This document shows positions 61,500 to 63,932 of a DNA stretch of 64,000 nt, piece by piece. The stretch covers positions 7,346 through 71,345 of the forward strand of contig QCMR01000003.1 of NCBI GenBank assembly GCA_003213595.1. The letters run 5' to 3'. Origin of the DNA: SAR86 cluster bacterium AG-422-E19. GTDB taxonomy: Bacteria; Pseudomonadota; Gammaproteobacteria; Magnimaribacterales; AG-339-G14. The notes beneath the pieces are model-generated. The model saw nothing but the letters and a program-made list of their open reading frames with translations. It was not told the origin of the DNA and searched no databases. The position numbers and the translations under genes were made by a program. Numbering within the stretch: the first letter of the stretch is position 1; each line of letters begins with the position of its first letter.

Positions 61500-61500
<1 letters not shown>

Positions 61501-63932
61501 TAACTTGCAGCCATTTTTAGAGCTTCATCGACATCCACAGAGACCAATCTTGATACACCTGGCTCCTGCATAGTAACGCCCATAAGGTGTTTACTTTTTT
61601 CCATTGAAATTTTATTGTGCGTTACGAAAATAAATTGAACCTTTTCAGACATTTCTTCAACCATATTGATAAATCTTGAAGTATTGAAGTCATCCAATGG
61701 AGCATCTATCTCATCAAGAATACAAAAAGGCGCAGGATTTAGAGAGAAAAAACTAAATACCAATGCAATAGACGATAAAGCTTTTTCTCCGCCTGATAAC
61801 TGAGAAACATTTACATTCTTTTTTCCTGGAGGCATAGCCTTAAAAAGCACTCCGGATTCCAATAAATCTCTTTCGGTTAATTCTAATTTTGCAAAACCAC
61901 CTCCAAACAGTTTTGGAAAAAGTTCACCTAATTTAATATTTAGCTTATCCAATGTATCCTTAAATTTTGTTCTTGATTCCAAATCAATTTTCTTAATCGC
62001 CCCTTGCAAGGTTTCCAGCGCACTATTCAATTCAGACATTTGAGTATCAATTTCGGAGTTTCTTTCTTCTTCCAATTTATACTCTTCTGCTGCAGCTAAA
62101 TTTATCGGACCGATTCTTTCTATTGAAGTTTCAATTCTTGAAATTTCTTCTACCAATGACTCCTCAGTCATATTTTCAGTAATTTCATCCAGCAATCCTT
62201 GAATTTCATAATTGTCGTTTTTAAGTTGTTCTTCAAAAATTGCTGATTCAGAAATAAATCCTTGTCTTTCTAATTTATATTTTTGAATATCTTTATTAAA
62301 CTCTTCAAGACTGAGATCAGTTTCGTGAATTCTTCGCTCATTGGCTCTTATGTTTTCGTTTAAATCATTAAAATGTTCTCTTAGTTTTGACAGGTTCCCC
62401 TCTACGTCTATTCTAGAGTCTAATAAGGGCTTAATATCTGCTTCAATTTTTTGTATCGGACCTTCAATCTCGTAAAGCTTTTCTTCAAGAGAGTTTTTTG
62501 CAGCAATAGTATTCAGCTTGGAACTTTCGATTGAAGATAATTTACTCTTAATTTCAGCTATTTTTACTTTGAAAGACGTAATTTCTGAACTCAAAGAAAG
62601 AAGTTCAGTTTTTTGAGCCTTAAACTTTTCTTCTTGATATTGAGATTGATGTTTAATTGATTCCTTTAGTTTTTCTAACTTGTTTTTAATCTCTAGAGCA
62701 AAAGAATGAATTTCTTGGATATCGCTCTCTGTTTTTGTTGAGAAATCCCTCGTAGTCTCTTCTAAAGAAACCGTTAGATTAGATACATCAAGAAAGATTT
62801 TTTCCACTAGAAAATCCGGAGACATTGCCCCCTCAAGTTTAGAAAAACTTTCGTCTAAGGCTTGAAGTTCTGGTTCTTTTTTTGAAAGTTCTAATTCAGC
62901 TTCAGACAACTCTTTTGATAAATTATCTTTATCGGAAGAAAAACTATTTAAAGTTTCTTCCATTTGGTCCTTTTCTAAAAGCAGATCCTTTCTCTTTTCT
63001 TTTAACAAAGATAATTCTTGTTCTGAACTAGTAAGGTCCGCGCCACTAGAATAGTAATCCTGTTGAACTTTATCTATTTTTTGCTGAATTTCAGATTGAG
63101 TTACTTTGGTTTTATCTATTTCGGAGTTTAGTGAGATTTTAAGAGTTCTTTCTTTTTCAAGGCTTGATTCAAGTTCTTTGATAGATAAATCTATATTTGA
63201 AATTTTTTCTTTTCTTGTTTGCCATGATATTGCTTTCAAAAGGCCTTTTTTTGACTTTTCTTCAGCTTTTAATGCTTCGTATCTTTCAGCTGACTTTACC
63301 TGTCTTTTAAGTTTTAAAAGCTGTCTTTCAATCTCATCTTTAAGATCTTTAACTCGACTGAGATTCTCTTTAGTTTTCTTAATTCTTGATTCGGTTTCTT
63401 TTTTCCTTTCGCGATAAACTGAAATACCTGCAACCTCTTCAATGTACATTCTTAGTTCTTCAGGTTTAGAGCTTATTAGCTTAGTCGCCATTTCTTGTTC
63501 AATGACTGCATAACTTCTAGGTCCGAGACCAGTACCGAGAAATATATCTGTAATGTCTTTTCTTCTACATTCTGAGCCGTTTAAAAAATAGATAGATCTC
63601 CCATCAATTTCTAAAACTCGTTTGACAGAAATTTCTGAATAGCTTGAATATTCTCCTCCTAATTTTCCTAAAGAATTATCAAATAAAAGTTCTACAGAAG
63701 CACGACTCGATGGTGCTCTGGATGATGATCCGCTAAAAATAACATCGGCCATATTTTCGCCTCTTAAATTTTTAGCAGATATTTCTCCCATGACCCATCT
63801 AACAGCGTCAATAATATTAGATTTACCGCAACCGTTAGGCCCGACTACTCCGCTCATGCTGCTGGGGAAGGAAATTTTCGTGGGGTCCACGAAAGATTTA
63901 AAACCAGATAGGCTGATGTTTTTTAATCTCAT
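61500..63932 (-). CDS. smc: SMC chromosome-partition ATPase, atypically short (810 aa) with no recognisable hinge
   Basis: N-terminal head FKSF...[20 protein letters not shown] and C-terminal head LSGGEKALSSIAL...CILDEIDAPLD. About 430 aa of heptad sequence lies between them, broken only around residues 367-397. Confidence 0.85.

What the first reader, a model, noticed from the sequence alone, without database searches (positions are those of the whole stretch)
61500..63932. SMC in canonical smc-zipA-ligA synteny that lacks a hinge domain and has arms roughly 40 percent shorter than usual
The ORF is uninterrupted and has clear SMC head halves: a Walker A block [20 protein letters not shown], the signature LSGGEK, and a Walker B block ILDEID. 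It is only 810 aa, whereas bacterial SMC is typically about 1150-1200 aa.

Residues ~170-600 are almost entirely heptad-like. I find no hinge-type segment and no glycine-rich motif. The only break is ~30 aa (EGAMSPDFLVEKIFLDVSNLTVSLEETTRDF, residues ~367-397, nt ~62742-62834), and it has no CxxC zinc hook either.

The hinge is the dimerisation and DNA-gating module of SMC. How this protein dimerises and folds back is therefore an open question. It may be a previously undescribed minimal SMC architecture from a streamlined genome.
Basis: partly seen in the sequence, partly recalled or inferred. Interest (0 to 1): 0.55.

Follow-up and report, generated by a model that had tools for sequence, protein, structure and literature searches.

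The report
Hinge-less SMC protein of SAR86 bacteria
The chromosome-organising SMC protein of the abundant marine SAR86 bacteria has lost its central hinge (dimerisation) domain and carries a short conserved helical tip instead, so nature has repeated an experiment otherwise done only by protein engineering.

Summary
Window 61500-63932 (minus strand) encodes an intact 810-aa SMC, followed by zipA and ligA. It scores above NCBI's curated cut-off for bacterial SMC and keeps every ATPase motif. No hinge is detectable with Pfam, with a clade-specific hinge HMM or in AlphaFold models.

It is not an assembly artefact. 75 SAR86 single-cell and metagenome genomes carry hinge-less forms of 727, 732, 809, 810 or 995 aa. 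These forms are one clade (99/100 bootstrap) and are under strong purifying selection (dN/dS 0.01-0.2).

All length change lies between residue 169 and the joint loop. The 995-aa form grew back canonical arm length through duplications in both arm strands.

In place of the hinge there is a conserved Ser-Pro kink and a hydrophobic helix-turn-helix tip. My best reading, which is inferred and not shown, is that this tip replaces the hinge as the dimerisation element of an otherwise ordinary SMC.

A 2025 metagenome paper already described "hinge-less SMC" in the ocean and assigned it to Actinobacteria. The architecture therefore has a precedent. The SAR86 lineage, the tip motif and the arm-length series appear to be undescribed. 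Whether SAR86 has ScpAB, and how the protein dimerises, could not be tested here.

The parts
61500..63932 (-). Complete smc coding sequence (810 aa plus stop), the hinge-less SAR86 form
   Evidence: ORF list. TIGR02168 SMC_prok_B scores 794.8 bits against a cut-off of 567.35. The protein is 99% identical to the SAR86 locus L001.
63426..63932 (-). N-terminal half of the ATPase head (residues 1-169), including Walker A GPNGCGKS (nt 63783-63842) and Q-loop Q146
   Evidence: K37, S38 and Q146 are invariant in a 110-sequence alignment. The best PDB sequence matches are B. subtilis Smc heads 5xg3 and 3zgx, E about 1e-97. The N-head length is the same (169 aa) in all forms.
62823..63425 (-). N-terminal arm helix (residues 170-370), with the conserved YYSSGA discontinuity at residues 284-297
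   Evidence: AlphaFold2 helices H170-283 and H298-370. Q290, Y294 and E304 are nearly invariant across full-length and hinge-less SMCs.
62727..62822 (-). Tip ('cap') that stands where the hinge would be: S371-P372 kink, hydrophobic helix 372-394, turn 395-402
   Evidence: Pro is invariant and Ser is >=90% conserved across all hinge-less classes. This is the most hydrophobic 21-aa window of the arm, 0.52 against a mean of 0.29. Conservation peaks locally at residues 346-375. AF2 places the fold-back here, with pLDDT <50 in the monomer model.
61905..62726 (-). C-terminal arm (residues 403-676), including the joint loop GPINLA (residues 608-613, nt 62094-62111)
   Evidence: AF2 helices H403-498, H514-572, H577-583, H590-607 and H614-676. 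The top Foldseek match is 5xei, a Pyrococcus Smc head with coiled coil and joint, E 3e-29.
61503..61904 (-). C-terminal half of the ATPase head (residues 677-810), with signature LSGGEK (nt 61782-61799), Walker B ILDEID (nt 61704-61721) and H-loop H772
   Evidence: S713, G714, G715, E716, D740, E741 and H772 are invariant.
60856..61500 (-). zipA (214 aa), immediately downstream of smc
   Evidence: Pfam ZipA_C, E 1.8e-16.
58802..60850 (-). ligA (682 aa), NAD-dependent DNA ligase
   Evidence: Pfam DNA_ligase_aden, E 3e-96, plus OB, HhH and BRCT domains.

Best explanation
**What it is**
This is the orthologous chromosomal SMC of SAR86 gammaproteobacteria. An ancestor of the sampled SAR86 lineages deleted the whole hinge domain and about 100-125 residues of each arm strand. 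The ATPase head, the neck, the joint and the proximal arm were kept unchanged.

**How it most likely works**
- The two arm helices are now joined by a short conserved tip: a Ser-Pro kink, an unusually hydrophobic 18-23-residue helix, a turn, and the hydrophobic start of the return helix.
- I propose that two such tips pack against each other into a small zinc-free helical bundle. The tip would then take over the only indispensable job of the hinge, which is holding two SMC arms together at the end far from the heads.
- The result would be a rod-shaped homodimer with arms of roughly 33 nm (810-aa form).
- In other respects it would work like ordinary Smc-ScpAB: ATP-driven head engagement, a kleisin bridge, loading at the joint, and DNA loop extrusion or chromosome-arm alignment.

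**Shown**
- Hinge absence, orthology, an intact ATPase, lineage-wide conservation, purifying selection, and the conserved hydrophobic tip.

**Inferred**
- Tip-mediated dimerisation, partnership with ScpAB, and the cellular function.
For: **Orthology and intact motor**
- TIGR02168 scores 794.8 bits, above its equivalog cut-off.
- smc-zipA-ligA synteny is present.
- All ATPase motifs are invariant.
- PDB sequence and fold matches are to Smc head, neck and joint structures, including ScpA-bound heads.

**Hinge truly absent**
- Pfam gives no hinge hit at E<=10 in the 810, 809, 732, 727 and 995-aa forms, yet it hits the 1168/1170-aa outgroups.
- A 207-position hinge HMM built from 146 related full-length SMCs scores 163-229 bits on hinge-bearing proteins. 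It finds nothing at E<=10 in any hinge-less form.
- AF2 models of the 810-aa and 732-aa forms are all-helical at the apex.

**Real and selected**
- Hundreds of metagenome clusters have exactly 810 aa down to 66% identity. The 732-aa form shows the same fixed length.
- 75 SAR86 genomes carry hinge-less forms.
- The hinge-less forms are monophyletic, 99/100 bootstrap.
- dN/dS is 0.01-0.02 in the heads, 0.03-0.06 in the proximal arm and 0.02-0.20 at the apex.

**Tip as an interface**
- S-P is invariant or nearly so across forms that are only about 44% identical.
- The tip helix is the hydrophobic maximum of the arm, more than mean+2 SD.
- Conservation peaks locally at the tip.
- The tip has low or moderate pLDDT in monomer models, as expected for a surface that orders on pairing.

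**Feasibility from the literature**
- A B. subtilis Smc with its hinge replaced by the Rad50 zinc hook is functional (PMC5344682).
- RecN, a hinge-less SMC relative, dimerises through hydrophobic contacts between its coiled coils (PMC6856136).
Against: - No dimer model or experiment exists.
- AF2 confidence at the tip is low (<50 for the 810-aa form, 58-66 for the 732-aa form).
- The tip sequence itself is poorly conserved beyond its S-P and its hydrophobic pattern: mean column identity is 42%, and only 10-17% between the 810 and 732/995 classes.
- The tip profile matches nothing natural in the PDB, only designed helical bundles at E about 1e-3.
- ScpA, ScpB and ParB were not found in the 64-kb window, and the rest of the genome could not be searched.
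- The tip is net acidic, so it cannot replace any DNA-binding role of the hinge.
Confidence: 0.6

Rival explanations
1. Heads-only SMC. The tip is just a tight hairpin and does not dimerise. Two monomers are held together only by ATP-dependent head engagement, arm-arm zipping and the ScpA bridge. The complex would keep only the kleisin compartment and would lack a closed SMC lumen.
For: - The tip has low AF2 confidence and little sequence identity across classes.
- The head, neck and joint are the most strongly conserved parts.
- The tip is acidic, with no obvious binding surface for DNA.
Against: - An invariant Ser-Pro and a hydrophobic maximum at the tip are hard to explain for a solvent-exposed hairpin end.
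- Arm lengths are fixed to the residue within each class over long divergence: exactly 810 aa down to 66% identity. This suggests the distal end has a geometric role.
- Engineered Smc still needed a dimerising hook when its hinge was removed (PMC5344682).
Confidence: 0.2
2. RecN-like end-to-end or intermolecular antiparallel dimer. Two molecules join through their distal coiled coils to give an elongated dumb-bell with a head at each end. Such a protein would act as a DNA bridge or tether rather than as a ring-shaped loop extruder.
For: - Deinococcus RecN, a hinge-less SMC relative, forms an elongated dimer of this kind through hydrophobic coiled-coil contacts (PMC6856136).
- The SAR86 tip is hydrophobic.
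Against: - The protein is an SMC orthologue, not a RecN: TIGR00634 recN scores 25.8 bits against a cut-off of 407.85.
- It keeps the neck and joint that serve kleisin and ParB interactions in canonical Smc, under dN/dS 0.03-0.06.
- AF2 folds each chain back on itself with matched N- and C-strand lengths.
Confidence: 0.1
3. Artefact or decaying gene. The short gene is an assembly deletion, a pseudogene remnant, or a divergent hinge that profile methods miss.
For: Streamlined AT-rich genomes are prone to gene decay, and coiled-coil sequence is repetitive and can mis-assemble.
Against: - The same architecture occurs in 75 independent SAR86 single-cell genomes and MAGs, including contigs of 0.6-1.1 Mb, and in hundreds of metagenome clusters.
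- There are no frameshifts, and dN/dS is 0.01-0.2 throughout.
- The sensitive clade-specific hinge HMM is negative.
- The apex is all-helical in two AF2 models.
Confidence: 0.02

Closest known systems
Bacterial Smc of the Smc-ScpAB condensin (TIGR02168; B. subtilis and Pseudomonas type)
   Same: - The head has Walker A, Q-loop, signature, Walker B and H-loop.
- It has a neck, a joint loop (GPINLA) and an antiparallel coiled-coil arm.
- The gene sits in smc-zipA-ligA order.
- It scores above the equivalog cut-off, and it nests among gammaproteobacterial SMCs in the tree.
   Different: - There is no hinge domain at all.
- The arms are 25-38% shorter.
- A roughly 30-50-aa Ser-Pro plus helix-turn-helix tip stands in the hinge's place.
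'Hinge-less' SMC clade from Tara Oceans metagenomes (Environ Microbiome 2025, PMC12153180)
   Same: [quoted passage not shown]
- Both are monophyletic and highly abundant in the surface ocean.
- That clade was not found alongside a regular SMC in GORG-Tropics single-cell genomes.
   Different: - That clade was assigned to Actinomycetes and branches near actinobacterial SMCs. This one is SAR86 (Gammaproteobacteria) and nests in gammaproteobacterial SMCs.
- The paper reports no tip motif, no arm-length series and no synteny.
- Its sequences are not in the held supplements, so whether the two clades are the same could not be tested.
Engineered B. subtilis Smc(Zh) and Mini-Smc (Burmann et al. 2017, PMC5344682)
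   Same: - A hinge replaced by a small heterologous dimerising tip, and arms shortened by about 90-100 aa, can still give a functional Smc.
- Natural arm lengths cluster in modes (163/238/341 aa).
- By an approximate comparison in which head boundaries were assumed, the 810-aa form gives about 231-247 aa per arm and the 995-aa form about 328-340 aa. These values sit near the 238 and 341 modes.
   Different: - Smc(Zh) is an artificial construct that uses a zinc hook with CxxC. The SAR86 tip has no cysteine.
- The 727/732-aa forms (about 196-208 aa per arm) fall between the reported modes.
RecN
   Same: It is a hinge-less SMC relative whose dimer is held by hydrophobic coiled-coil contacts (PMC6856136).
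   Different: - RecN has far shorter arms and is an SOS repair protein.
- The recN model scores only 25.8 bits here, against a cut-off of 407.85.
Rad50/SbcC
   Same: It has a head plus an antiparallel coiled coil that ends in a small apex rather than a globular hinge.
   Different: - Rad50/SbcC needs a CxxC zinc hook and an Mre11/SbcD partner. This protein has no cysteine in the arms.
- Rad50 models score 36-56 bits against cut-offs of 700-1087.

Membership tests
Bacterial SMC (Smc-ScpAB condensin, TIGR02168) | Whole-protein profile score above the curated equivalog cut-off | tested here: met
   794.8 bits against a cut-off of 567.35, in two stretches. The first covers residues 2-368 and maps to profile positions 1-365 of 1181.
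Bacterial SMC (Smc-ScpAB condensin, TIGR02168) | ABC-type ATPase head assembled from the N and C termini (Walker A, Q-loop, signature LSGGE, Walker B DE, H-loop) | tested here: met
   K37, S38, Q146, S713-E716, D740, E741 and H772 are invariant in 110 sequences. PDB matches to Smc heads reach E 1e-97.
Bacterial SMC (Smc-ScpAB condensin, TIGR02168) | Long antiparallel coiled-coil arm with a joint | tested here: met
   AF2 helices span 170-394 and 403-676, with a break at the GPINLA loop. The Foldseek top hit is 5xei, an Smc head with coiled coil and joint. The arm is shorter than canonical.
Bacterial SMC (Smc-ScpAB condensin, TIGR02168) | Central hinge dimerisation domain (Pfam PF06470, glycine-rich motifs) | tested here: not met
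   No Pfam hit at E<=10 or at E<=1 in sister forms. The clade-specific hinge HMM gives no hit at E<=10. The apex is all-helical. No PDB hinge chain is matched.
Bacterial SMC (Smc-ScpAB condensin, TIGR02168) | Works with kleisin ScpA and kite ScpB | not testable with these tools
   No ScpA, ScpB, MukBEF or MksBEF family occurs among the other 60 ORFs of the window or in the 10 kb upstream in L001. The only indirect support is strong constraint on the neck and cap.
Bacterial SMC (Smc-ScpAB condensin, TIGR02168) | Gammaproteobacterial smc-zipA-ligA gene order | tested here: met
Hinge-less marine SMC clade of PMC12153180 | SMC head plus coiled coil, no hinge, no CxxC, abundant in ocean metagenomes | tested here: met
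   compared with the paper's description.
Hinge-less marine SMC clade of PMC12153180 | Belongs to the same sequence cluster (assigned to Actinomycetes) | tested here: inconclusive
   The host here is SAR86 and the protein nests in gammaproteobacterial SMCs, which argues for a separate lineage. The paper's sequences are not in the held supplements.
Rad50/SbcC | CxxC zinc hook at the coiled-coil apex | tested here: not met
   The only cysteines are at positions 35, 122 and 737. Rad50 models score far below their cut-offs.
RecN | recN equivalog score and a roughly 550-aa architecture with short arms | tested here: not met
   TIGR00634 scores 25.8 bits against a cut-off of 407.85.
Defence-system SMC-like ATPases (LmuB, JetC, AriA, GajA) | Best match to a PADLOC defence model over the full length | tested here: not met
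   Only partial head-level matches are found: mad3 at 193 bits over residues 537-806, and LmuB at 79 bits. TIGR02168 scores 795 bits by comparison.

The most novel reading that the evidence does not exclude
SAR86, one of the most abundant bacterial groups in the surface ocean, runs its chromosome with an SMC that has no hinge. A new, zinc-free, roughly 30-50-residue helical 'cap' (a Ser-Pro kink plus a hydrophobic helix-turn-helix) dimerises the arms. If so, neither the hinge fold nor hinge-DNA contacts are needed for a native chromosomal SMC. The lineage has also tuned arm length in discrete steps (727/732, 809/810/827, 995 aa). One step re-extended the arms to canonical length by duplicating segments of both coiled-coil strands. 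This gives a natural series for testing arm-length and hinge-dependent models of loop extrusion.
Probability: 0.4. Interest if true: 0.8.

Novelty: new variant of a known kind. Interest (0 to 1): 0.6.

Why it matters
The hinge is treated as a defining and essential module of SMC proteins, serving dimerisation, DNA binding and possibly a DNA gate. Several loop-extrusion models give it an active role.

A native, strongly selected, hinge-less SMC in a globally abundant free-living bacterium would show which hinge functions are dispensable in vivo.

It also offers a natural set of arm lengths, including a re-elongated form. These can be compared with the periodic arm-length rule found by engineering in B. 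subtilis.

If the actinobacterial clade reported in 2025 is a separate lineage, hinge loss has happened at least twice in streamlined marine bacteria. That would point to a common selective cause.

Tried and rejected
- **Fused dimer model.** I built a 25-row paired alignment of tip-linker-tip fusions (A2) to test tip-tip packing with AF2.
- **scpA/scpB/mukBEF/mksBEF.** I scanned all other window ORFs as concatenated pseudo-proteins and the 10 kb upstream of smc in L001. None was found. A literature search for SAR86 with ScpA, ScpB, kleisin or MksB listed no paper that mentions SAR86.
- **Identity with the 2025 clade.** The paper's supplements hold no sequences and no GORG or SAR86 identifiers.
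- **Tip profile against the PDB.** The only hits were de novo designed helical bundles at E about 1e-3. I treat this as a compositional similarity, not homology.
- **MAFFT pairing of the tip with hinge residues of L066** ('IHLLDS' with 'ITLLDS'). I rejected this as chance because the hinge HMM finds nothing.
- **blastp self-comparison without composition correction.** It was uninformative for repeats, so I replaced it with a windowed Smith-Waterman scan with shuffling.
- **First bootstrap tree script.** It timed out and was rerun with a faster distance routine.
- **Cluster look-up for taxonomy of the 827/990/1071-aa forms.** It returned no useful names.
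Full report
**The observation**

The window holds one uninterrupted ORF of 810 aa on the minus strand, at 61500..63932. The 'break' is at residues 367-397 (nt 62742-62834). The two downstream genes are zipA (ZipA_C, E 1.8e-16) and NAD-dependent ligA. 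The smc-zipA-ligA order is therefore real.

**It is an SMC**

- NCBIfam's equivalog model for bacterial SMC (TIGR02168) scores 794.8 bits against a cut-off of 567.35. It does so in two stretches, the first mapping residues 2-368 to profile positions 1-365 of 1181.
- recN, Rad50 and defence-type SMC-like models score far lower.
- The closest solved structures by sequence are B. subtilis Smc head constructs, at E about 1e-97.
- The closest by fold is a Pyrococcus Smc head with coiled coil and joint, 5xei, at E 3e-29.
- Walker A, Q-loop, signature, Walker B and H-loop residues are invariant in a 110-sequence alignment with full-length relatives.

**It has no hinge**

- Pfam reports SMC_N over residues 3-794 but no SMC_hinge, even at E<=10.
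- The same search finds the hinge in two full-length outgroups at E 1e-9 and 3e-7. It finds none in any short relative.
- I built a 207-position hinge HMM from 146 full-length gammaproteobacterial SMCs and ran it with all filters off.
  - It scores 163-229 bits on hinge-bearing proteins.
  - It gives no hit at E<=10 in any 727, 732, 809, 810, 827 or 995-aa form.
- AlphaFold2 models of the 810-aa protein (pLDDT 79.9) and of a 732-aa relative (pLDDT 80.6) are helical throughout the centre.
- There is no cysteine in the arms, so there is no zinc hook.
- Against a 1169-aa homologue, the protein lacks about 124 residues of the N strand, about 128 hinge residues and about 101 residues of the C strand.

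**It is not an artefact**

- The protein database holds hundreds of 90%-identity clusters of exactly 810 aa, down to 66% identity. The 732-aa form shows the same fixed length.
- In one-genome-per-species GTDB contigs, the relatives are SAR86 single-cell genomes and MAGs, some on contigs of 0.6-1.1 Mb.
- Their SMC lengths fall into classes: 810 (32 loci), 809 (7), 732 (18), 727 (7) and 995 (8). The 1168-aa and 1170-aa proteins belong to non-SAR86 gammaproteobacteria.
- Among the 150 best 50%-identity representatives, only six are short. Four of these (810, 827, 732, 995 aa) are hinge-less. The other two (990, 1071 aa) keep a full hinge. All the rest are 1132-1188 aa.
- On head-domain columns the hinge-less forms are monophyletic in 99 of 100 bootstraps. 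The two short-armed but hinge-bearing proteins are unrelated to them.
- Pairwise dN/dS is 0.01-0.02 in the heads, 0.03-0.06 in the proximal arm, 0.11-0.20 in the distal arm and 0.02-0.20 at the apex.
- Together, these results show a functional gene that has been hinge-less since before the sampled SAR86 lineages diverged.

**Anatomy**

- The N-terminal 169 residues have the same length in every form, canonical or hinge-less. So do the 203-204 residues that start at the joint loop.
- All length variation lies between these two points: 796-798 aa (canonical), 623, 438/436 and 360/355 aa.
- In the 810-aa model the N strand runs 170-370, with the conserved YYSSGA discontinuity at 284-297. A kink follows at S371-P372, then a short helix 372-394, a turn 395-402, and the return strand 403-676 with the joint loop at 608-613.
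- The 732-aa model has the same plan: H171-337, S342-P343, H343-360, turn 361-365, H366-494.
- The proline is invariant and the serine is >=90% conserved across all hinge-less classes.
- The helix after the Ser-Pro is the hydrophobic maximum of the arm. Its strong-hydrophobic fraction is 0.48-0.52, against an arm mean of 0.27-0.29, which is more than mean+2 SD.
- Conservation within the 810 class peaks locally at residues 346-375.
- The tip is net acidic.

**Arm-length series**

The 995-aa form is nested inside the 727/732 clade. It contains two internal tandem duplications:
- one in the N strand, offset about 120 aa, z 16-22;
- one in the C strand, offset about 140-150 aa, z 18-27.

Together they add 263 aa. 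They include a second copy of the joint loop and a relic of the cap start.

If head boundaries are set so that canonical arms equal the published 341-344 aa, the mean arm is about 231-247 aa for the 810 form and about 328-340 aa for the 995 form. These values are close to the natural modes of 238 and 341 aa, and the forms differ by about one 91-99-aa superhelical period (PMC5344682). The 727/732 forms (about 196-208 aa) fall between modes. This comparison is approximate, because I assumed the head boundaries.

**Mechanism**

- Shown: the motor, neck and joint are intact and strongly constrained. The hinge is gone. A conserved hydrophobic tip stands in its place.
- Inferred: the tip dimerises two arms, acting as a zinc-free hook.
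- Two literature results make this plausible.
  - A B. subtilis Smc with its hinge replaced by the Rad50 zinc hook is functional (PMC5344682).
  - The hinge-less relative RecN dimerises through hydrophobic coiled-coil contacts (PMC6856136).
- I could not establish whether SAR86 has ScpAB. No such gene lies in the window or upstream of smc, and the rest of the genome was out of reach.
- Rival readings are a heads-only complex with no distal dimerisation, and a RecN-like dumb-bell.

**Prior knowledge**

A 2025 paper on Tara Oceans gene catalogues describes an abundant monophyletic clade of 'hinge-less' SMCs with no CxxC. It assigns them to Actinomycetes, notes that they do not co-occur with regular SMC in GORG-Tropics single-cell genomes, and offers no mechanism (PMC12153180). 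It does not mention SAR86, and its sequences are not in the held supplements.

The proteins here are gammaproteobacterial by host label and by tree. This is therefore either a second, independent hinge loss or the same clade under a different taxonomic label. Searches for SAR86 with SMC or ScpAB terms found no paper that mentions SAR86.

**Verdict**

- This is a new variant of a known kind: a true SMC orthologue that fails one defining feature of the family.
- It is of real interest to SMC specialists, because it makes the question of hinge dispensability testable in a natural system.

Noticed in passing
L068:10001-12988 (also L069-L072, L074, L075, L077): The 995-aa SAR86 SMC carries tandem duplications in both coiled-coil strands: residues about 230-350 repeated at about 350-470, and about 555-700 repeated at about 700-840. 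The duplications include a second GxxNLA joint loop (residues 650 and 793) and a relic 'SPKEKEL' copy of the cap start. They restore roughly canonical arm length without a hinge.
   Followed up: partly
P0278 (990 aa) and P0382 (1071 aa), from the representative search: Two gammaproteobacterial SMCs unrelated to SAR86 keep a complete hinge (174 and 163 bits with the hinge HMM) but have arms shortened by about 90 and 50-75 aa per strand. Arm shortening and hinge loss are therefore separable events.
   Followed up: partly
window 60856-61500 (-): ZipA is only 214 aa, with its ZipA_C FtsZ-binding domain at residues 92-204. From memory, E. coli ZipA is about 328 aa, so the linker region seems strongly reduced. 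This would be another long protein trimmed in this genome.
   Followed up: no
window 58802-60850 (-): LigA shows adenylation, OB, HhH and BRCT domains, but Pfam lists no zinc-binding-domain hit at E<=0.01. Cysteines are present around residues 410-440 with unusual spacing.
   Followed up: no
window 38945-40634 (-): A umuD-like (Peptidase_S24) and umuC-like (IMS, IMS_C, DUF4113) gene pair, that is, translesion or SOS mutagenesis genes kept in a streamlined genome.
   Followed up: no
window 43492-46530 (-): A 1012-aa predicted secreted protein or lipoprotein with bacterial Ig/cadherin-like repeats and a reprolysin-like zinc metalloprotease domain.
   Followed up: no
window 10007-17926: A cluster resembling acyclic-terpene or leucine catabolism (atu/liu): acyl-CoA carboxyltransferase, biotin carboxylase with biotinyl domain, enoyl-CoA hydratase and AtuA. 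A PhoD-like phosphatase lies next to it.
   Followed up: no
L001:4136-9951 (upstream of smc, beyond the window end): Immediately upstream of smc in the near-identical SAR86 contig lies the cytochrome c maturation operon (CcmA-like ABC ATPase, CcmB, CcmC, CcmE, CcmF, a thioredoxin-like protein and CcmH). There is no scpA or scpB there.
   Followed up: yes
window 37344-37859 (-): A small stand-alone HNH endonuclease ORF (171 aa), directly after a DsbD-like thiol:disulfide interchange gene.
   Followed up: no
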